NCBI GenBank assembly: GCA_030583785.1 | Contig: CP129475.1 | Coordinates: 351,559 to 415,558, forward strand | Length of the DNA stretch: 64,000 bases | Direction: 5' to 3' | From: Candidatus Dojkabacteria bacterium | Lineage (GTDB): Bacteria > Patescibacteriota > Dojkabacteria > B142 > OLB20 | Notes under the pieces: model-generated | What the model was told of the DNA's origin: nothing | The model's database searches: none | The model's input: only the letters and a program-made list of their open reading frames with translations | Translations under genes and position numbers: made by a program | In this document: one piece after another, positions 7,553-58,814 of the stretch | Position numbering within the stretch: the stretch's first letter is position 1 | How the letters are laid out: each line of letters opens with the position of its first letter

Positions 7553-8419
7553 CTAGAAGATATTTGTAGGACGATTAAATAATCCTTTTTGTTCAACTGC
7601 TTCAATTGCGCGGTCAACTTCATCTTTATCTGGCAATCCCTCAGGAGCAGAGTATAATATAACCCTATCTCTATGCTTTCCCTCCTCAAGTGTTGCTACT
7701 AAGAAAAGCCTAGCTACTCCATTGTCTGAAGATTCATAAGTAGCTACAGCATCTGGTCTGAAACTACAAAAATCCAAATTTGTTAGCATAGGGTAACCAT
7801 TTGTTCCTAAACCTAACGAATCTGCAAAAAAAACACCTTTTACTTCATGTTGCGATCTATGTTCTATCGGTTCTGGAAAACTTACAGTATAACCAGATAT
7901 AACTGGCCAGGAAACTGTTAGATTATTATCTTGTCGAAATGCACCTACTAGTCCGTATATTTCGCTATGCCCCGCAAAGGCATCGATATCATTACTGCCA
8001 TTAAATAATCTATGACTCACAGGATCAAATAACGCTAAATTTACTCTAGGTTCACAATTAAATATTTGCGAAAACTCAACTCTCTCAACATTATTAAGAG
8101 CATGCATGCGATAGCGATGCTGATTATAAAAACTCACAGCCTTAATGTATTTGGGTGCAATATCCTCAGTTATACACCTATATGTCCTAAAAGGATCGAC
8201 CAAGACTTCATCAGCGTATCTACTTATGAGGGGCCAACAATTATCTTGGTTGCCCATTATGGCCTCAAGTGTAAGTATCCTTCGAGATAAAATTTGAATT
8301 CCTAAGTCTTGCCAATGCCTTCTAGTAGTATCTTTCCGCCTTTCAAGAAGATCTGCAAGCTTCTCAAGGTTTTGATCAAGCTCTGCTTGGTAATGATGGA
8401 TCGGACTTTGCTCAGGCAT
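7553..8419 (-). CDS. Hypothetical protein, last gene of the four-gene operon
   Basis: 288-aa ORF that overlaps the upstream M20 gene by 8 nt. I recognised no confident family. Confidence 0.55.
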   Translation of the reverse strand: MPEQSPIHHYQAELDQNLEKLADLLERRKDTTRRHWQDLGIQILSRRILTLEAIMGNQDNCWPLISRYADEVLVDPFRTYRCITEDIAPKYIKAVSFYNQHRYRMHALNNVERVEFSQIFNCEPRVNLALFDPVSHRLFNGSNDIDAFAGHSEIYGLVGAFRQDNNLTVSWPVISGYTVSFPEPIEHRSQHEVKGVFFADSLGLGTNGYPMLTNLDFCSFRPDAVATYESSDNGVARLFLVATLEEGKHRDRVILYSAPEGLPDKDEVDRAIEAVEQKGLFNRPTNIF

Positions 8420-9527
8420 TTTTCAGAACAAATTCAAAGATTAAATCAGCATATTCTTCTAAGCTATGCATATCTATCCATTCATTCTCCGAGTGATCTC
8501 CACCACAAACAGGCTTATGTAAAAGAACAGGAATATCATATTTACTGAAGAAGCGAGCATCAGAAGAGCCAGTGTCAATTACAAAACGAAAATCAATTTT
8601 CTTAACAGTTAATAACTCAAGATAATTTTCAACGAATGTATTTTTTAAATCTAGTTCATAAGGCTCACCATAGACAAGAGCCTTTGATTCTATACCGTCG
8701 GAACACACGCTATCTATAAGTGACTGCAATTCTTTGTAATCAGCGTGCTTTAAGAAGCGAAAGTCTAATTTCATGCTAGCTGAATCTGGTACGGAATTGG
8801 CTGCTGTACCACCGTTAATCTGCCCTAAATTACAACTTATTGGTTCTTGTTCACGATTAAAGATTTCGTCTTGTTTTAGACACGAGTAAAAATCTAGCAA
8901 TTTGTCTATGGCATTCACTCCCTCCCATGGCCTTGAGCCATGTGCAGAAATGCCTGTAGCTTGAATATCAACATGGAGAACTCCTTTTGCAGCTTTGGTA
9001 ACTGCATGGTTGTTTGATCCATCTGGAAGAATGCAGAAATTGCATCGTAAGCTTTGATCATCAAGAAGGTATCTTACGCCATCACTACTACCAATCTCTT
9101 CGTCAGAGGTTAACCAAAGAGCTATATCATGCTTACCTGCGTCAAGCTTGAGTAGGGTATAGATAAAGGCCGCTGTTGCATACTTCATATCTGAAGCACC
9201 TCTAGCTTGAAGTTTGTTGTCAATAATATCTGCCTTAAACATGCTATCAGGCCCTGGAACGACATCTATATGTGACTGCAAGACAATTTTTGGAGACTTC
9301 AAAGATTTTGAGTAAACCACTAAGGATTCTTGTCCGTTACTCAGATATCTTTGAAATTTATATTTATCTGCAAGCAGATTCTCGACATAATCATACAAGG
9401 AGCTGACTTCAAGAGCCTTGCTTGGATAGCCCTCGTAAGTTCGAAAGGAAACTAGTTTCTTTAGAATTTCTATCGCACTAATTTGTTGCATCGAGAAGGA
9501 AGGTTTTAATAATTTCATAATAATCAT
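8412..9527 (-). CDS. M20 family metallopeptidase (ArgE/DapE/ACY1-like), paralog B
   Basis: 371 aa. M20 metal-binding motifs are present (HIDVVP, ARGASDMK, TSDEEIGS). An ATG is confirmed at 9527. Alternative ATGs at 9518 and 9491 would shorten the overlap with the upstream gene. Confidence 0.8.
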   Translation of the reverse strand: MIIMKLLKPSFSMQQISAIEILKKLVSFRTYEGYPSKALEVSSLYDYVENLLADKYKFQRYLSNGQESLVVYSKSLKSPKIVLQSHIDVVPGPDSMFKADIIDNKLQARGASDMKYATAAFIYTLLKLDAGKHDIALWLTSDEEIGSSDGVRYLLDDQSLRCNFCILPDGSNNHAVTKAAKGVLHVDIQATGISAHGSRPWEGVNAIDKLLDFYSCLKQDEIFNREQEPISCNLGQINGGTAANSVPDSASMKLDFRFLKHADYKELQSLIDSVCSDGIESKALVYGEPYELDLKNTFVENYLELLTVKKIDFRFVIDTGSSDARFFSKYDIPVLLHKPVCGGDHSENEWIDMHSLEEYADLIFEFVLKNA

Positions 9528-10560
9528 CTAGACTGGAAATACTTACCCATTCCTCATCGCTACCAATGCCTCCACCCACGGGACCAAATTCAACCCCAGG
9601 CATACCGAGCTTTACAAAATGCCTGACATCTGAAGACCCTTGAGCTGCGTACAATTTACATTTCTTATTGGTTATCGATTTTGTAATCCTCTGCAGAGAT
9701 TTTATGTGCATATTCTCTGGATCAACATCCATGGCAGGCTCATTAGTTAGTATGTTCAACTTTGCTCCTTTGGGTAAGAGCTTTTTGATCACTTTTAAAA
9801 TCCGGTCGTGATCACCAGGGACGAATCTAATGTCCATGCCAAGACAGGCATGGTCCGGAACTTTATTGAAAGCTTTATTCACAGTATTTAGTTTAGAAAA
9901 ATTGATTGTTGTGATCCAATCTTTCTTTACTGGATTTTTTATCTTACCTGATAACTTAGTTATAAAATCAGACGCTTGAAAGAGGGCATTATTTCCTTTC
10001 CATGGGTATGCTCCATGTGCGGATTTGCCTTTAAATTCAACCTCAAGCCACATTATTCCTTTTGCCTGATTGACGATATCCAGATTTGTAGGTTCTGATG
10101 AAATAACAAATTCAGCCGTTAAACCATTCTTTAACTGATAAGCAGTTCCATCAAAGCCACCTATTTCTTCATCTGTTGTAACCTGCAAAGCAAGAGGGTA
10201 GTCAAGATTTTTTGCATACTCCTTAAATACAAGGACACAACAAGCGGCATTTGCCTTCATGTCCATAGCACCAGCTCCGTAAAGTTTGTCTCCGATAATT
10301 TTCGGACTGTATTGATTATCCTTTGCCGGAATAATATCTAAATGGATATTAAGAACAAATTTAAAGTTTCTAAAACCCTTTGCCTGATTATGAATAAGTG
10401 AACTTATTTGTCCATTGGCAAAAAAATCTTCAATTGTATATTCGGCTAAAGATGACTTTACAAGGTTTAGAGCCTGTTTAAGATGGACTTTAGAATTAGG
10501 AATCGTTGGAATCCTAATCAGTTCTCTAGCTAGTTTTAAAATGTCATGCTGCTTTCGCAT
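9478..10560 (-). CDS. M20 family metallopeptidase (ArgE/DapE-like), paralog A
   Basis: 360 aa: HLDIIPAKD, GAGAMDMKANAA, TTDEEIGG. The ATG at 10560 overlaps the end of the 690-aa gene. Confidence 0.8.
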   Translation of the reverse strand: MRKQHDILKLARELIRIPTIPNSKVHLKQALNLVKSSLAEYTIEDFFANGQISSLIHNQAKGFRNFKFVLNIHLDIIPAKDNQYSPKIIGDKLYGAGAMDMKANAACCVLVFKEYAKNLDYPLALQVTTDEEIGGFDGTAYQLKNGLTAEFVISSEPTNLDIVNQAKGIMWLEVEFKGKSAHGAYPWKGNNALFQASDFITKLSGKIKNPVKKDWITTINFSKLNTVNKAFNKVPDHACLGMDIRFVPGDHDRILKVIKKLLPKGAKLNILTNEPAMDVDPENMHIKSLQRITKSITNKKCKLYAAQGSSDVRHFVKLGMPGVEFGPVGGGIGSDEEWVSISSLDDYYEIIKTFLLDATN

Positions 10561-12616
10561 TTCGTGAAGAACTTACAATTATTATGTAGAATGCGTCGCC
10601 ATTTCCATGAATTGTATTCTTTTTTGCTTCTTGATGGTCCATTTCCAAATGGTTAGCAAATCCTGATGCGAACTCGTATTCTCTAATATTTGGATTATAC
10701 AAGAAAAACAGCCTGTCTATACGACCATATTCTATTGGTGAAAGTATAGGTGATTCATTTTCATCTAATTCACCTCTCAATACTGGTCCACTATCTAGAA
10801 TCCTTAAGGCAGGTACTTCATTCTGCAACACATATATTCCGCGTTCTTGCAAACTGGTCAATAAGTCTCGTAATACTTTTGGACTTGTTATAGAACCTCT
10901 AATATGGCCATATGCTCCATATGAAAGTACCATCGGCTTCAGACGTAGATTAAGATTATTCGGGTCATCAATATTTTGACCCTTGCTTGCTAGGTAATTT
11001 CTTAACTTATCCGTAAAAATAGATGCCAAATCTTCTTGTTCTAGGCCTTCTATTACCTGTGCAATGCTATCGGCTATACTGATAGATTCTGTTTTTGTAA
11101 CCAAATCTAAAAGATCATCAATTTGTTTGATAATAGCTAATCTGTCTGAGTCATCCGTCACATCAGTACGATCCAAGAAATAATTCATGGCGTCCTTAAA
11201 AGAAGTTCCAATATTTCTATGCGCAATTGCCTTGAAAACGCTTAGCAGATTTGCAGCATTAGGAAACCTTCCCTGCAATTCATCTAATGAATAGCCCGCC
11301 TTTTCTAATGCAGGATTTGGTTTTCCGCTTTTAACTGCACCTAACAGGTTTTTTACTCTTACAATTTTTCTATCAAGTAAGTTGGTTTCTGCAATTGTAA
11401 GAAGTTCCTCAGAGAACAAATCGTCTAAACCTCTGACAATAACAGCCATTCCTAGCTCTTCCATGTATTCCTTTGTATCATTAAGCGGTAGAGCTTCGCT
11501 TCCTGGAAGATCAACATTTGGTGTTAATGATCTTTCTCTCAACAAACGGAGCAACTTCTCTTGTTGATAAATATCTGGAAGATCGAGTTCGGCATTCGGA
11601 TTAATGAGCTTACTTACAGGAAGAGAAGAGCGCACATAAAAGATTGTATCATCGGCTTCCGCAAGCTTTCTTTCGGCTTCCTCTATTGCACTAATATCAC
11701 CATCAAAACGAGCAAGATCTAAGATAATTTTGCATTTCTGAATATTTCTAAGATGCGCTTCTAAATCAGAAGGGCTCATTACCTGATCAAATCCTATTCT
11801 TTCTCGCGTAAGCTCCTCAGAGGCAAGTTCACCTGGTTGCAACATCATTTCTTCTGCTCGAATTGCATTGTATTTTTTTTCTGTAAGGGTAGCTACGGCA
11901 ATCTTTTTACCAGTGTATTCTCTAATACACTCCAGACTGCCATCAAACGCAGCCATCATTTCAGAATTCCCGTTTTCATCCATAAAAATCATGCGCATGA
12001 AATTGTACCTAGCAAGAGAGTTTTCAAACTCAAAAACTCTTTCCATCAGCACTTGGTCAAGAACATCTTCTGGTAGCTGATCAGCAATATCTAAAAATGC
12101 ATCAGGTAAAGCAGCCATATCAATCTGCAATCCCCAGTTGACAAAATTACCCTCTGGATCATTGCCTGCTGCATATGCCATATCTTGTCCACTAACTTCT
12201 CGCTCTCTTTGAACCAAACGGTTGTAAGCCCGGGCATAACGGTTAATAGACCTTGTTATCGAAGACAGCACGCTTTCTGGGTACTCGACTACACCTTTAC
12301 CTGACTCTCTGTCCTCTTGCTCATGTTTGAAAGAATCTGGAACAAGATCCCCATTTTTTAGCATTTTATATGCTGGTATTCTGTCATTAGTAACAATTGG
12401 ATTTAATACAACCGCTTGAACTCTATTCGCCTCAAGGAATGCTCGAGCATGTTCAATTGTGAATTCTGCGGGCTGAAGAGGTTCATTACCTGCTAATAGT
12501 CTTTCGTCTAACATTGATTCTTCATAAAAAATAAAAAACCTCCCTTGCGGGAGGTTGATTTGTAAAACATATTTCTTTGAACTAATTAACCTCCCGTGCA
12601 GAATTAGCCCATACAA
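10544..12616 (-). CDS. Large conserved protein of unknown function, first gene of the operon. The track start is a TTG; ATG 12514 (MLDERLL...) is the more probable start.
   Basis: 690-aa ORF with no recognisable catalytic signature. The first 34 codons overlap a hairpin and T-run structure, so they are more likely 5' leader than coding. Confidence 0.7.
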   Translation of the reverse strand: MYGLILHGRLISSKKYVLQINLPQGRFFIFYEESMLDERLLAGNEPLQPAEFTIEHARAFLEANRVQAVVLNPIVTNDRIPAYKMLKNGDLVPDSFKHEQEDRESGKGVVEYPESVLSSITRSINRYARAYNRLVQREREVSGQDMAYAAGNDPEGNFVNWGLQIDMAALPDAFLDIADQLPEDVLDQVLMERVFEFENSLARYNFMRMIFMDENGNSEMMAAFDGSLECIREYTGKKIAVATLTEKKYNAIRAEEMMLQPGELASEELTRERIGFDQVMSPSDLEAHLRNIQKCKIILDLARFDGDISAIEEAERKLAEADDTIFYVRSSLPVSKLINPNAELDLPDIYQQEKLLRLLRERSLTPNVDLPGSEALPLNDTKEYMEELGMAVIVRGLDDLFSEELLTIAETNLLDRKIVRVKNLLGAVKSGKPNPALEKAGYSLDELQGRFPNAANLLSVFKAIAHRNIGTSFKDAMNYFLDRTDVTDDSDRLAIIKQIDDLLDLVTKTESISIADSIAQVIEGLEQEDLASIFTDKLRNYLASKGQNIDDPNNLNLRLKPMVLSYGAYGHIRGSITSPKVLRDLLTSLQERGIYVLQNEVPALRILDSGPVLRGELDENESPILSPIEYGRIDRLFFLYNPNIREYEFASGFANHLEMDHQEAKKNTIHGNGDAFYIIIVSSSRNAKAA
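12515..12600 (-). promoter_or_regulatory. Candidate transcription attenuator or leader (terminator/antiterminator)
   Basis: The minus strand reads ...ACGGGAGGTTAATT...(about 34 nt)...AACCTCCC GCAA GGGAGGTT TTTTATTTTTT, followed by ATG 12514. The middle segment can pair with either flanking GGGAGGTT copy. The 3' pairing, followed by the U-run, forms an intrinsic terminator. Confidence 0.45.
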
Positions 12617-12812
12617 AAATGAGCATAAAAATATAAAAGAGGTTTTGGTTCACAGAAATTTTAGACATGCGGTTTTTATAACACAGATATATTTATATGG
12701 CAAGAAAAAAAGTAAAAAATCCAAAGTGGAGTAGGGTAGAACATGCCAATACTAACCGAAACATAACCGAATAAAATCCTCCCCGTACGACGACCTATAA
12801 TTATCAATATCC

Positions 12813-12864: not shown

Positions 12865-12954
<90 letters not shown>

Positions 12955-55450: not shown

Positions 55451-55597
55451 ATGGAACTACTGCTTATTATCGTCTGTACAATAACAGTATTCATGCTAAT
55501 AACTCTATTCGTAGCTGCTGTTGCAATCAGCAAAAAAGACGAAAGCCCAACGAAGGCCCAAAAGTTTACATTAGACAGACAAAAGGAAATTAAATAA
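55451..55597 (+). CDS. Small single-pass membrane peptide (48 aa), translationally coupled to gyrA
   Basis: [48 protein letters not shown]. Its TAA stop overlaps the gyrA ATG (TAATG at 55595-55599). It is not in the ORF track. Confidence 0.4.
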
Positions 55598-58200
55598 TGC
55601 CTGACGAATCACAATTAACAATTACAGATAAGCGAATCAAGGAGCAAAACATTACCGAAGAAATGCGCTCCAGCTATATCAATTATGCCATGAGTGTTAT
55701 TGTGGCTAGGGCACTGCCAGATGTTAAAGACGGACTAAAGCCTGTTCAGCGAAGAATACTTTATGCAATGTATAAACAGGGCTTTCTTCCTTCATCCTCT
55801 TACAAAAAGTCTGCCAGAACAGTTGGAGAGGTTATCGGTAAGTATCACCCTCATGGTGATACGGCAGTCTACGATGCTATGGTCAGAATGGCTCAAGATT
55901 TCAGTTACAGATATATTCTTATCGACGGTCAAGGAAACTTTGGCTCAATCGACGGAGACAGCGCCGCTGCCATGAGGTATACAGAATCAAGACTGCACAA
56001 AAATGCTATTCGCATTCTTACAGATTTAGAGAAAAAAACAGTTGATTTCGTATCTACATACGACGGAACTCATAATGAACCAGTAATTCTGCCATCTCTC
56101 TTACCAAATCTACTTCTAAACGGAGCAGAAGGAATTGCAGTGGGAATGGCAACAAAAATTCCACCTCACAATCTTGGAGAACTTGTTGATGCGATGGTTG
56201 AAATGATCAACAAAGGCGAGGCAACAACCACAGATGAGATTGATTACTCATATCTTGATACCATAAAAACCGTTGCCGATATTGATAATCTCAGCAATGA
56301 AAGATTTCCGCACTTTAATTCCGAAGTAGAGATTTCAGAAATTCTAAAACACATACCTGGACCAGATTTCCCCACAGGTGCAGAGATTTACGACCAAGAA
56401 GAAATAAAGCGAGCATATATGACCGGCAGAGGTCGAATTCTAATGCGGGCAATCGCAAAGATCGAAGAAAATAAAAGTGGAAAGTTCCAAATCATTATCA
56501 CAGCGCTTCCATATCAGGTAAATAAGGCAAATCTAGTAAGTAAAATCGCAGAACTTGTTAAAGATAAAAAGATTGAAGGAATTTCTGACATCCGAGACGA
56601 ATCAAACAAACTTGGAATTAGAATTGTTATTGATCTAAAACGAGACAGTAAGCCAAAAACATTGCTCAACAAGCTGTATAAATATACAGAAATGCAAAAG
56701 GCATTTAATGCCAACATGCTGGCACTTGTAAATGGAGAGCCAAAACTGCTCAACCTCAAAAGAATCCTTGAACTTTTTATTGAACACAGGCAAGAAATAA
56801 TTATTCGCAGAAGTGAATATGATTTGGCACGAGCACGCGAAAGAGAACATATCCTAGAAGGATTGATGATCGCACTTGATAACCTAGACGAAGTTATTAA
56901 TACAATTCGCTCATCAAAAGATGTAGATATCGCCAAAGAGAACTTGATGAAAAAGTTCAAATTAAGCGAAATTCAATCACAGGCAATCCTAGATATGCAA
57001 CTTAGAAGACTTGCTGCCCTTGAAAGACAAAAGATAGAAGAGGAATACAAACAAATTAAAATCACTATTGCAGATCTTCTGGCTTTGTTAAGCTCTGCAA
57101 GCACTATCCTCAAAACCATTGTTGACGAACTTACAGAGCTTAAAGAAAAATCGGGTGATATTCGCCGAACAAAGGTTCACAAAGGCAAAGTAGGAGAATT
57201 CAATGAAGAGGACCTTATTGCCAAAGAAGAGGTTATTGTAACAATCAGTGAACAAGGTTACATCAAACGCATGAAGCAAGATACCTATACCTTGCAAAAG
57301 CGAGGAGGAGTGGGCAAAAAGGGAATGACAACCAAAGAAGATGACGGTGTAGCTCACATATTGAGCTGTAATACTCACGACGAGATATTATTCTTCACTA
57401 GCAAAGGAAGAATGTTTAATCTTCGAGTTTATGATATCCCAGAATTTGGTAGAACAGCTCGAGGACAAGCAGTTATTAATCTAATTAATATTGAACAAGA
57501 CGAAACCATTCAAAGTGTTTTAACCAGAAATCCTGATGGTCGAATATACGACGAAGATATCACCCAAGAAGGGGAAACGAAAACAGAATCTGGGAAATAC
57601 AAATTCTTGTTTATGGCAACAAGACATGGCATTGTTAAGAAAACATCACTCGAAGAATTTGCAAATATTCGAGCAAATGGACTGATTGCAATTAAGCTCT
57701 CCGACGGTGACGAGCTTGCCTGGGTTAAACCAACAACTGGTAAAGATGAAATCATGTTAATTACCAGAAAGGCTAGGTGCATTCGCTTTAAAGAAGCCGA
57801 TGTCCGCGAAACGGGTAGGGCAACTATGGGAGTAAAGGGTATAACCTTCAAGTTCAAAGAAGATGAAGTAATTGTCATGGATGTTATTCGTAAGCTCGAA
57901 GAATTTGTTCTAAGTGTTTCAGAGCTTGGATACGGTAAAGTCACCGATCTTTCAGAATTTCCAACCCAAAACAGAGGTGGTATGGGAGTATTTACTGCCA
58001 GGGTAAATAAGAAAACTGGCGATCTTGCATCGGCCAGAATAATAGATCATCCCGATCTTGAATTATTAATAATAACTCAAAGTGGACTTGCCGTTCGTAT
58101 ACCAACAAATGAATTACCAAAGCGCAGTAGGCAAACAGCCGGTGTAAGGCTAATGAAAATGAAATCTGATGATACGGTTACAGCTATTGCAATTATTTAA
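55597..58200 (+). CDS. gyrA: DNA gyrase subunit A
   Basis: 867 aa: [38 protein letters not shown], an active-site Tyr region (AAMRYTE), and a C-terminal beta-pinwheel. Confidence 0.95.
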
Positions 58201-58305
58201 TGATTTGTTGTAACATTGATTCGGATAGTTCGTTAATGTATATAAGAAAACCAGTTATATAATGAGAAATTGTTGTCTCACAAATAAGATGATTTTTATC
58301 AACAA

Positions 58306-58367
58306 GACCGGCTAAGGGAGAGGTTTAGCATGTTTACAAAACCTCTCAATTTTGAGAGGTTTTTAAT
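58306..58367 (+). promoter_or_regulatory. Three-segment terminator/antiterminator element with an embedded 15-codon uORF upstream of greA
   Basis: GAGAGGTTT (58308-16), AAACCTCTC (58329-37) and GAGAGGTTTTTAATTTTT (58344-61). The middle segment can pair with either flank; the 3' pairing plus the U-run forms an intrinsic terminator. The uORF is ATG 58320..TAA 58367, encoding MFTKPLNFERFLIFN. It is preceded by GGGAGAGG with a 6-nt spacer and its codons span the terminator. Confidence 0.5.
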
Positions 58368-58382
58368 TTTTAATTAAATTAA

Positions 58383-58814
58383 ATGCAGGATAACTCAAGA
58401 AAAAATCGAATAATTAACAAGATCAATGACCTAAAGGCTCAAATTCTTGAGCTAGGATCGCAGATTGAGCAAGAAAGAAATGAAAACAACGAAGAAGATA
58501 CAGCTATCAGACAAGAGCTGCTTGATAAACGCGAAATTCTTGAGCAGCAAATCTTAGAATTACAAAACGGCTTAACCTTAGCAAGTAATTCAGCTGAACT
58601 TCCTGCTGACCTTGGCAAGACATTTACAATAGATATGAACGGATCAAGTAGAGAATTAACAATTGTACTTCCAGACGAGGCAAACCCTTCAATGGGCAGT
58701 ATCTCTATTGATTCACCTATAGCTAAAGCGTTGTTAGGTAAAAAACAAGGAGAGATTGCTAGCGTTTCAACACCTATGGGAAATCAGCAATATCTGATCA
58801 AAAAAGTTGTATAA
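58383..58814 (+). CDS. greA: Transcription elongation factor GreA-like (short)
   Basis: 143 aa with an N-terminal coiled-coil and a C-terminal FKBP-like domain (ISIDSPIAKALLGKKQGEIASVSTPMGNQQYLIKKV). Confidence 0.7.
   Translation: MQDNSRKNRIINKINDLKAQILELGSQIEQERNENNEEDTAIRQELLDKREILEQQILELQNGLTLASNSAELPADLGKTFTIDMNGSSRELTIVLPDEANPSMGSISIDSPIAKALLGKKQGEIASVSTPMGNQQYLIKKVV

What the first reader, a model, noticed from the sequence alone, without database searches (positions are those of the whole stretch)
12515..12640. Attenuator-like leader (GGGAGGTT / AACCTCCC / GGGAGGTT + U-run) in front of the operon; the annotated N-terminus is probably leader RNA
On the minus strand, the 100 nt before ATG 12514 contain two copies of GGGAGGTT flanking one AACCTCCC. 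The 3' copy plus AACCTCCC and TTTTTTATTTTTT forms a textbook intrinsic terminator placed upstream of the coding start. The 5' copy offers a mutually exclusive pairing that would act as an antiterminator. The track ORF begins with a TTG and reads through this structure, which is most likely an artefact. This would be conditional transcription termination controlling the unknown operon. The effector (metabolite, protein or ribosome) is unknown.
Basis: seen in the sequence. Interest (0 to 1): 0.6.

Follow-up and report, generated by a model that had tools for sequence, protein, structure and literature searches.

The report
Leader-peptide transcription attenuator before ligase operon
The repeated GGGAGGTT/AACCTCCC motifs are real and belong to a conserved on/off transcription switch, most likely set by a ribosome translating a tiny upstream gene, that controls an uncharacterised ligase plus deacylase operon in uncultivated bacteria.

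Summary

The element spans 12703..12515 on the minus strand:
- a sigma-70 promoter;
- a 28-codon ORF starting 6 nt after the -10 box, so probably leaderless;
- four pairing regions (1:2, 2:3, 3:4);
- a U-tract 12 nt before ATG 12514.

About 37 homologous loci at roughly 30% protein identity share this layout. Where the terminator stem differs, the upstream "region 2" changes in parallel. Region 2 always lies at the 3' end of the short ORF.

In folding with a ribosome footprint masked, the antiterminator forms in 27/28 leaders when the ribosome is stalled upstream. It forms in 7/28 when the ribosome sits at the stop codon.

The leader peptides are rich in Trp and Phe. Loci without the leader instead carry a Trp-repressor-family gene. 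This points, tentatively, to tryptophan or aromatic amino-acid supply as the signal.

The regulated genes encode a glutathione-synthetase-like ATP-grasp ligase (fold evidence only) and ArgE/DapE-type M20 deacylases.

No Rfam family matches. I class it as a new member of a known kind: a ribosome-mediated attenuator. Nothing has been tested experimentally.

The parts
12698..12703 (-). -35 hexamer TTGCCA of the leader promoter
   Evidence: Read; scored 10/12 with a 17-nt spacer. Equivalent TTGACA-17-TATAAT promoters occupy the same place in about 20 homologous loci. No transcription start has been mapped.
12675..12683 (-). Extended -10 box TGtTATAAA
   Evidence: The tool's own promoter scan missed it because that scan requires T at position 6 of the hexamer.
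12582..12668 (-). Leader ORF, 28 codons plus TAG: MSKISVNQNLFYIFMLIFVWANSAREVN*. The ATG starts 6 nt after the -10 box, so the mRNA is probably leaderless.
   Evidence: An ORF of 15-45 codons with the same geometry is present in 20/20 loci that have a recognisable promoter, against about 4% of shuffles. The peptides are enriched in Trp and Phe.
12636..12646 (-). Region 1 (AAAACCTCTTT), inside the leader ORF; pairs with region 2 (anti-antiterminator)
   Evidence: Minimum-free-energy folds; RNAduplex -10.0 kcal/mol.
12604..12628 (-). Apical hairpin enclosed by the 1:2 helix; contains the Trp codon
   Evidence: Minimum-free-energy structure.
12587..12596 (-). Region 2 (CGGGAGGTTA; first GGGAGGTT copy), in the last codons of the leader ORF; pairs either with region 1 or with region 3 (antiterminator)
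   Evidence: It ends 5 nt before the end of the stop codon.
12549..12556 (-). Region 3 (AACCTCCC), 5' arm of the terminator
12537..12544 (-). Region 4 (second GGGAGGTT), 3' arm of the terminator
   Evidence: hairpin -14.0 kcal/mol. Helix covariation across 29 leaders.
12526..12536 (-). U-tract of the intrinsic terminator (TTTTATTTTTT)
12508..12525 (-). 5-codon mini-ORF (MKNQC*) whose stop overlaps the main ATG (ATGTTAG); role unknown, possibly a relic
   Evidence: Read; also present in L001. Not conserved as such in other loci.
12515..12616 (-). Spurious TTG-started N-terminal extension of the mechanical ORF; in fact leader RNA
10544..12514 (-). First regulated gene, 656 aa. Uncharacterised family with a glutathione-synthetase/glutathionylspermidine-synthase-like ATP-grasp ligase fold.
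   Evidence: No Pfam or NCBIfam hit. 158 relatives found. AF2 pLDDT 90.5 and 94.4. Foldseek hits for the 448-aa relative: 3n6x E 2.7e-6, Cp1B 9cjn E 4e-4, glutathione synthetase 5oes E 1.2e-3.
9478..10560 (-). Second gene: ArgE/DapE-family M20 deacylase
   Evidence: An M20 gene follows the ligase gene in 10/10 other loci tested.
8412..9527 (-). Third gene: second ArgE/DapE-family M20 deacylase
7553..8419 (-). Fourth gene, overlapping the third; 288 aa with no family match

Best explanation
This is a ribosome-mediated (leader-peptide) transcription attenuator.

Transcription starts at a sigma-70 promoter (12703..12675). The transcript begins at or next to the AUG of a 28-codon leader ORF (12668..12582), which is translated without a Shine-Dalgarno sequence.

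Four RNA segments can pair as 1:2 plus 3:4 (terminator, operon OFF) or as 2:3 (antiterminator, operon ON).
- If the ribosome runs to the stop codon, it covers region 2. Regions 3 and 4 then form the terminator, and RNA polymerase stops at the U-tract 12 nt before ATG 12514.
- If the ribosome stalls in the hydrophobic, aromatic codons (F11..W20), it masks region 1 and leaves region 2 free. Region 2 captures region 3 before region 4 is made, and polymerase reads into the ligase/M20 deacylase operon.

The most likely stalling signal is shortage of charged tRNA for tryptophan and other aromatic or hydrophobic amino acids.

Shown here: the sequence elements, their conservation and parallel change, and the folding behaviour. 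Inferred: the transcription start, translation of the ORF, the stalling signal, and actual termination and readthrough.
For: Conserved layout. The 45%-identical homologue (L002) and the 29%-identical one (L004) show the same layout, although their leader sequences differ. A second metagenome scan gave 57 loci; about 37 distinct ones carry promoter, short ORF, region 2 and terminator just upstream of the gene.

Antiterminator.
- The best partner of the terminator 5' arm lies -38..+13 nt from the leader stop codon in 28/28 leaders. Mean z is -2.76, and 21/28 have z < -2.
- Among 15 loci whose terminator arm lacks the CCTCC core, the locus's own leader is the best of 28 partners in 6 (binomial p 8e-6) and in the top three in 9.
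- 17 other terminator-like hairpins in the window show no such complement.

Terminator helix: 85.7% of cells paired, 13 compensatory cells, 0/500 shuffles reach the covariation score.

Leader ORF.
- The geometry is met in 20/20 loci against about 4% of shuffles.
- The peptides are recognisably related within subgroups (for example NYWFFFHPL, NYWFYFHPL, NFWYHYHPL), and there is an in-frame 3-nt indel between L019 and L052.

Ribosome-footprint folding: the antiterminator forms in 27/28 leaders with a ribosome stalled upstream of region 2, and in 7/28 with a ribosome at the stop codon. For the window the fractions are 0, 1.00 and 0 for none, stalled and at stop.

The leader is better conserved than the gene between the window and L001: 2/213 against 88/1971 mismatches, p 0.01.

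GGGAGG is not a ribosome-binding site here. SD-like 4-mers precede 4/51 ORFs, which equals the background rate.

Signal.
- Trp is enriched 3.7-fold and Phe 2.0-fold; 22/28 peptides contain Trp. The Trp codon lies a median 24 nt upstream of region 2.
- Four of 10 loci without the leader have a Trp-repressor-family gene (PF01371, E 1e-23 and 9e-19) adjacent to the operon, against 0 of about 37 loci with it (Fisher p 0.001).
Against: There is no experimental or transcript evidence of any kind. The promoters and transcription start are consensus matches only.

The leader peptides have no clean homopolymeric run of one regulatory codon. Six of 28 lack Trp and are Ile/Leu/Val/Phe-rich instead, so the sensed amino acid is uncertain. 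A generally hydrophobic composition is partly a by-product of U/C-rich RNA.

In 18/28 leaders the antiterminator already forms in the unmasked fold, so region 1 is not a universal feature. In 7/28, a ribosome at the stop codon does not block it.

The geometry window was defined after seeing the data, and the loci are phylogenetically related, so the p-values are optimistic.

The function of the operon is unknown, so there is no biochemical logic linking it to Trp. TrpR-family proteins of the YerC/YecD type have unknown ligands.
Confidence: 0.72

Rival explanations
1. The terminator/antiterminator switch is real, but it is set by a nascent-peptide arrest mechanism rather than by tRNA charging. 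In this reading the hydrophobic, aromatic peptide stalls the ribosome in response to a small molecule or to a membrane-insertion state, as with TnaC, ErmCL or MifM.
For: The conserved property of the peptides is aromatic/hydrophobic character (W-[FY]-x-[FY] clusters, or transmembrane-like stretches such as VWFLVYFFIIVLLG), not one repeated codon. F, Y and H interchange in related leaders, which keeps residue character.
Against: The peptides are very short (15-45 aa), and no arrest motif is shared across the family. The Trp-repressor-family genes at leader-less loci fit amino-acid sensing better. The geometry of the Trp codon relative to region 2 matches classical attenuators.
Confidence: 0.12
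2. The switch is set by a metabolite (riboswitch), a protein or a tRNA that binds the leader RNA, and the short ORF is incidental.
For: Alternative terminator/antiterminator pairing is common to all these classes. No translation evidence exists.
Against: No Rfam family reaches its threshold in the window or in 20 homologous loci. The best hit was Phe_leader at 22.7 bits, against a threshold of 55. The leaders share almost no primary sequence outside the pairing segments, so there is no conserved binding pocket. The ORF, its start next to the promoter and its stop next to region 2 are conserved far beyond chance.
Confidence: 0.08
3. The short ORF is a functional small-peptide gene (a membrane peptide, or a ribosomally made precursor that the ATP-grasp ligase and M20 enzymes process). 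In this reading the hairpin is just a leaky terminator that sets the peptide-to-enzyme ratio.
For: The peptide families are conserved within subgroups. The neighbouring enzymes are an amide ligase and amidohydrolases. From my own knowledge, small precursor genes followed by partial terminators are known in peptide-natural-product clusters, for example mccA-mccB.
Against: This reading does not explain why a segment at the 3' end of the ORF co-varies with the terminator 5' arm in every locus. The peptide C-termini and lengths are highly variable. Some relatives have the operon with no peptide gene and a TrpR-family regulator instead.
Confidence: 0.06
4. It is an ordinary feature or an artefact: a chance repeat, the 3' terminator of an upstream gene, or a true N-terminal coding extension from TTG 12616.
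For: The mechanical ORF is open from TTG 12616.
Against: The only upstream neighbour is a divergently transcribed tRNA-Ser. Homologues lack the extension and keep the leader.
Confidence: 0.02

Closest known systems
Classical ribosome-mediated attenuators of amino-acid operons (E. coli trpL, pheL, ilvL, hisL; Kolter & Yanofsky 1982; Vitreschak 2004, both as cited in PMC8079986)
   Same: A short leader ORF; four segments pairing 1:2, 2:3 and 3:4; an intrinsic terminator directly before the first structural gene; regulatory codons placed about 10-35 nt upstream of region 2; and the ribosome position deciding which hairpin forms.
   Different: There is no Shine-Dalgarno sequence, and the ORF starts at or near the transcript 5' end. 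The peptide has mixed aromatic and hydrophobic codons instead of a run of one codon. The controlled operon is not a recognised biosynthetic operon. The host lineage is uncultivated (the nearest named relative is a Dojkabacteria MAG). No sequence similarity was found: Rfam Phe_leader scores 22.7 bits against a threshold of 55.
Leaderless leader-peptide attenuators of Actinobacteria (Streptomyces lividans trpL1/trpL2, leuL, ilvL: PMC8079986; Corynebacterium glutamicum, including the aromatic attenuator of Neshat et al. 2014, cited there)
   Same: The leader peptide is translated from a leaderless transcript and followed by hairpins and a U-stretch. Some have only one Trp codon (TrpL2 is MMTRTCTQLWRAA), like most peptides here.
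   Different: The phylum and G+C content differ. Those attenuators control trpE, trpS, leuA or ilvB, whereas this one controls an ATP-grasp-like ligase and M20 deacylases of unknown role. Leaderless status here is inferred only from the -10-to-ATG spacing.
Polycysteine leaderless short ORFs of mycobacteria (Canestrari et al., bioRxiv 10.1101/834739)
   Same: A leaderless sensory short ORF on which ribosome stalling remodels downstream mRNA structure and controls an operon.
   Different: That system acts on translation, by unmasking a ribosome-binding site, and senses cysteine. This element has a canonical intrinsic terminator with a U-tract, and its genome does not use Shine-Dalgarno sites.
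TrpR-type repression of trp-related operons
   Same: Homologous operons that lack the leader carry a Trp-repressor-family gene beside them. This suggests the same input delivered by a different mechanism.
   Different: That is a protein repressor acting at DNA, not an RNA switch. No TrpR-family gene occurs in this window.

Membership tests
Ribosome-mediated (leader-peptide) transcription attenuator | Intrinsic terminator between the promoter and the first structural gene | tested here: met
   Hairpin 12556..12537 plus a U-tract, 12 nt before ATG 12514. Conserved, with compensatory changes, in 29 leaders.
Ribosome-mediated (leader-peptide) transcription attenuator | Mutually exclusive antiterminator pairing that involves the terminator 5' arm | tested here: met
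   z = -5.4 in the window; mean z -2.76 over 28 loci; cross-locus specificity p 8e-6; 17 control terminators negative.
Ribosome-mediated (leader-peptide) transcription attenuator | Short ORF in the leader that overlaps region 1 and ends at or near region 2, so that ribosome position selects the fold | tested here: met
   ORF 12668..12582. Geometry met in 20/20 loci against about 4% of shuffles. Region 2 lies -38..+13 nt from the stop in 28/28. Masked folding gives 27/28 against 7/28.
Ribosome-mediated (leader-peptide) transcription attenuator | Cluster of regulatory codons for the amino acid that is sensed | tested here: inconclusive
   Trp 3.7-fold and Phe 2.0-fold enriched; Trp in 22/28 peptides, a median 24 nt before region 2. 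However, there is no single-codon run, and 6/28 peptides are Ile/Leu/Val/Phe-rich without Trp.
Ribosome-mediated (leader-peptide) transcription attenuator | The leader ORF is translated, and readthrough responds to amino-acid supply | not testable with these tools
   Needs Term-seq, ribosome profiling or reporter assays.
Leaderless leader-peptide attenuators (actinobacterial type) | Transcription starts at the A of the leader AUG | tested here: inconclusive
   The -10 box ends 6 nt before the ATG in the window, L002 and L033, and 7-13 nt before it in most others. No SD motif is present. No transcription-start data.
Rfam Phe_leader (RF01859) and any other Rfam cis-regulatory family | Score at or above the family gathering threshold | tested here: not met
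   Phe_leader scores 22.7 bits against 55. Nothing but tRNA passes in the window. None of 20 homologous loci has a hit over the leader.
Riboswitch / T-box | Conserved aptamer or specifier/T-box sequence core | tested here: not met
   There are no conserved unpaired sequence blocks in the 29-leader alignment. Only 2 invariant columns exist, and both are in the terminator. Rfam is negative.
ATP-grasp amide ligases (glutathione synthetase / glutathionylspermidine synthase-like) - the regulated gene | ATP-grasp three-domain fold | tested here: met
   For the 448-aa family member, Foldseek gives 3n6x E 2.7e-6 (prob 1.00), Cp1B 9cjn E 4e-4 and glutathione synthetase 5oes E 1.2e-3, followed by DcsG, PurK, Ddl and RimK. 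The 656-aa window protein gives only weak hits to the same folds. No sequence-level match to Pfam, NCBIfam or PDB. Activity and substrates were not tested.

The most novel reading that the evidence does not exclude
A previously undescribed family of leaderless, Trp- and aromatic-rich leader-peptide attenuators in ultra-small uncultivated bacteria (Patescibacteria/CPR-like). In other lineages it is replaced by TrpR-family repressors. It would mark the ATP-grasp ligase plus M20 deacylase cassette as an unrecognised pathway for acquiring or salvaging tryptophan or other aromatic amino acids in organisms thought to lack amino-acid biosynthesis. It would also show that classical transcription-translation coupling operates there without Shine-Dalgarno initiation.
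Probability: 0.3. Interest if true: 0.75.

Novelty: new member of a known kind. Interest (0 to 1): 0.58.

Why it matters
It corrects a gene start.

It adds a well-supported attenuator family, about 37 loci and absent from Rfam, in lineages where almost nothing is known about gene regulation. The papers library returned no paper combining attenuation or leader peptides with Patescibacteria/CPR.

It also gives a regulatory handle on a conserved two-enzyme cassette of unknown function (158 relatives, no Pfam family). The Trp- and aromatic-rich leader peptides, together with the complementary distribution of TrpR-family genes, yield a testable hypothesis about what the cassette is for.

A second, similarly built leader in front of a greA-like gene in the same window suggests this organism uses the mechanism repeatedly.

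Tried and rejected
Searches that found nothing useful:
- Rfam at gathering and at permissive thresholds found only sub-threshold noise.
- The first word-indexed protein search found only 2 homologues, and a later one with alignment A2 gave 5 proteins, the only source name being "hypothetical protein".
- The genome-contig scan found only the Dojkabacteria MAG.
- The first metagenome scan found nothing.
- Pfam, NCBIfam and a PDB sequence search of the 656-aa family found nothing.

Alignment limits: MAFFT plus RNAalifold on 29 leaders recovered only the terminator helix. Regions 1 and 2 sit at variable positions, so I used per-locus duplex and shuffle tests instead of a covariance model.

Ideas rejected:
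- GGGAGG as a ribosome-binding site. This genome shows no SD usage (4/51 ORFs, equal to background). The distance from region 4 to the true start codon also varies from 7 to about 40 nt among loci.
- A coding N-terminal extension.
- A pyrBI-type mechanism in which the ribosome directly melts the terminator. The leader ORF stops 40-74 nt before the end of the terminator.
- The frame +1/+2 control. It is biased, because ATGA creates TGA, and I replaced it with the shuffle test.
Full report
**Observation.**
- GGGAGGTT at 12595..12588
- AACCTCCC at 12556..12549
- loop GCAA
- GGGAGGTT at 12544..12537
- TTTTATTTTTT at 12536..12526
- ATG at 12514

The mechanical ORF 10544..12616 starts at TTG 12616 and reads through them. 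The only upstream neighbour is a divergently transcribed tRNA-Ser at 12865..12954. The hairpin therefore cannot be the 3' terminator of another gene. The 12 nt between the U-tract and ATG 12514 leave no room for a promoter.

The 8-mer is expected about 0.5 times per strand. Three of its four occurrences on both strands are in this 59-nt stretch.

- Promoter. Upstream lies TTGCCA, a 17-nt spacer, then TGtTATAAA (12703..12675). Six nt after the -10 box comes the ATG of a 28-codon ORF (12668..12582, MSKISVNQNLFYIFMLIFVWANSAREVN*).
- Pairing regions. A fourth segment, AAAACCTCTTT (12646..12636, inside the ORF), pairs with the first GGGAGGTT in the minimum-free-energy fold. This gives the classical 1:2, 2:3, 3:4 topology (fold z = -3.5 and -3.6).
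- Position of region 2. It lies in the last codons of the ORF and ends 5 nt before the end of the stop codon.
- No Shine-Dalgarno use. SD-like 4-mers precede 4 of 51 ORFs, which equals the background rate. GGGAGG here is therefore a pairing element, not a ribosome-binding site.

**Homologues.**
- The regulated protein is rare in the word-indexed database: one 95%-identical copy and one 45%-identical copy from a Candidatus Dojkabacteria MAG.
- A full HMMER search found 158 relatives.
- A second metagenome scan with a 35-sequence alignment returned 57 loci at about 30% identity.
- The 95% copy is called from the ATG (656 aa). Its leader differs at 2 of 213 positions, against 88 of 1971 in the gene.
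- The 45% and 29% homologues have no N-terminal extension. Their leader sequences differ, yet they carry a promoter, a short ORF (MTNLSIIFVIFLSLIRA*, MKSFSSFIIILFSNR*), a region 2 at the ORF stop, and a terminator just before the gene.
- About 37 distinct loci share this layout.

**Tests of the alternative pairing.**
1. The best RNAduplex partner of each terminator 5' arm in its own leader lies -38..+13 nt from the leader stop codon in 28/28 loci. Mean z is -2.76 against dinucleotide shuffles, and 21/28 have z < -2. The window gives z = -5.4, with 0/300 shuffles as good.
2. Many loci share the CCTCCC/GGGAGG stem, but 15 have other stems (CCGGC, CUGGUUCCG, CAAGGACCCC, CCACUGCC, CCCCGC and others). 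In these, region 2 changes in parallel. The locus's own leader is the best of 28 partners in 6 and in the top three in 9 (p 8e-6).
3. As an internal control I tested 19 terminator-like hairpins in the window. Only this one (z -5.1) and one at 58338 (z -4.35) have an upstream complement. The other 17 give z between -0.9 and +2.
4. The terminator helix itself shows 85.7% pairing and 13 compensatory cells, and 0/500 shuffles reach its covariation score.

**Tests of the leader ORF.**
- In 20/20 loci with a recognisable promoter, an ATG lies 6-21 nt after the -10 box, opens at least 15 codons, and stops 40-75 nt before the terminator end. About 4% of shuffles meet these limits. The limits were set after seeing the data, so the test is optimistic.
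- Peptides are related within subgroups (NYWFFFHPLQRE, NYWFYFHPLLRE, NFWYHYHPLNRG; SAWYFYFSHSNRWKRADFI and SAWFTFTPPNRWKRADFM). L019 and L052 differ by an in-frame 3-nt indel.
- Folding the nascent leader with a ribosome footprint masked gives the antiterminator in 27/28 leaders when the ribosome is stalled upstream of region 2. It forms in 7/28 when the ribosome is at the stop codon, and in 18/28 with no ribosome. For the window the fractions of the 5' arm held by region 2 are 0, 1.00 and 0 for no ribosome, stalled and at the stop codon.

**What is sensed.**
- The peptides are enriched in Trp (3.7-fold) and Phe (2.0-fold) and depleted in Asp and Glu. 22/28 contain Trp.
- The Trp codon lies a median 24 nt upstream of region 2. 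That is the position expected for a regulatory codon.
- Six peptides lack Trp and are rich in Ile, Leu, Val and Phe, so the signal is not certain.
- Independent support comes from the loci that lack the leader. Four of 10 have a Trp-repressor-family gene (PF01371; E 1.4e-23 and 9.3e-19) directly beside the operon, against none of about 37 leader-bearing loci (Fisher p 0.001).
- I therefore favour supply of tryptophan or aromatic aminoacyl-tRNA as the input, at roughly 40-50% confidence.

**What is controlled.**
- The first gene's family has no Pfam, NCBIfam or PDB sequence match.
- AF2 models are confident: pLDDT 90.5 for the window protein and 94.4 for a 448-aa relative.
- The relative matches ATP-grasp amide ligases: putative glutathionylspermidine synthase 3n6x (E 2.7e-6), Cp1B (E 4e-4) and glutathione synthetase (E 1.2e-3). 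The window protein itself gave only weak hits to the same folds.
- Cp1B ligates a dicarboxylic acid to an L-amino acid (PMC12568646).
- The next gene is an ArgE/DapE-type M20 deacylase in the window (two copies) and in 10/10 other loci tested.

**Comparison with known systems.**
- The mechanism matches classical trp-, phe- and ilv-type attenuation.
- It is closest to the leaderless leader-peptide attenuators of Actinobacteria (PMC8079986).
- It is conceptually close to the mycobacterial polycysteine leaderless ORFs, which act on translation (10.1101/834739).
- No Rfam family matches. The papers library returned no paper combining leader peptides or transcription attenuation with Patescibacteria/CPR.
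- I classify it as a new member of a known kind.

**Limits.** Everything is computational. The transcription start, translation of the ORF, termination and the signal are all inferred. The taxonomic assignment of the window rests only on its nearest named homologue, a Dojkabacteria MAG.

Noticed in passing
window 58219..58382 (+): A second attenuator-like leader lies between gyrA (55597..58200) and a GreA/GreB-family gene (58383..58814, PF01272 E 4.6e-18). It has a possible promoter; a short ORF at ATG 58262 (MRNCCLTNKMIFINKTG*); GGGAGAGGTTT (58316..58326) right after the stop, whose 3' nine bases (GAGAGGTTT) are the exact complement of AAACCTCTC in the terminator 5' arm; and the terminator AAAACCTCTCA-atttt-TGAGAGGTTTT (58338..58363), 20 nt before the gene. 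The upstream complement has z = -4.35, 0/300 shuffles. From memory, E. coli greA also has a terminator-containing leader (GraL).
   Followed up: partly
L051 62-394, L059 335-655, L058 5253-5618, L053 3333-3599: Trp-repressor-family genes (PF01371) sit next to homologous ligase/M20 operons that lack the leader ORF. None occurs in leader-bearing loci or in the window.
   Followed up: yes
window 12676..12784 (-): Just upstream of the leader promoter, preceded by GGGGAGG (12784..12778), are two more overlapping aromatic-rich small ORFs: MFRLVLACSTLLHFGFFTFFLAI* and MFYPTPLWIFYFFSCHINISVL*. They may be a decayed duplicate of the leader, or chance ORFs in T-rich DNA.
   Followed up: no
window 12508..12525 (-): A 5-codon mini-ORF (MKNQC*) starts right after the U-tract, and its stop overlaps the main start (ATGTTAG). 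In several homologous loci an ATG or GTG 7 nt after GGGAGG is the true gene start, so this may be a relic of that arrangement.
   Followed up: partly
whole window: The genome shows no Shine-Dalgarno usage: an SD-like 4-mer lies upstream of 4/51 ORFs, equal to background. Several genes have -10-like boxes immediately before their start codons, which suggests frequent leaderless or SD-independent initiation.
   Followed up: partly
L021 2190-2390: A group I intron hit (Rfam RF00028, 72.8 bits) lies in the intergenic DNA just upstream of that locus's leader.
   Followed up: no
L016-L018, L028-L030, L037, L040, L056, L058, L051: In many relatives the ligase domain is the C-terminal half of an 800-1000-aa protein, with an N-terminal region of about 480 aa that has no Pfam match.
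   Followed up: no
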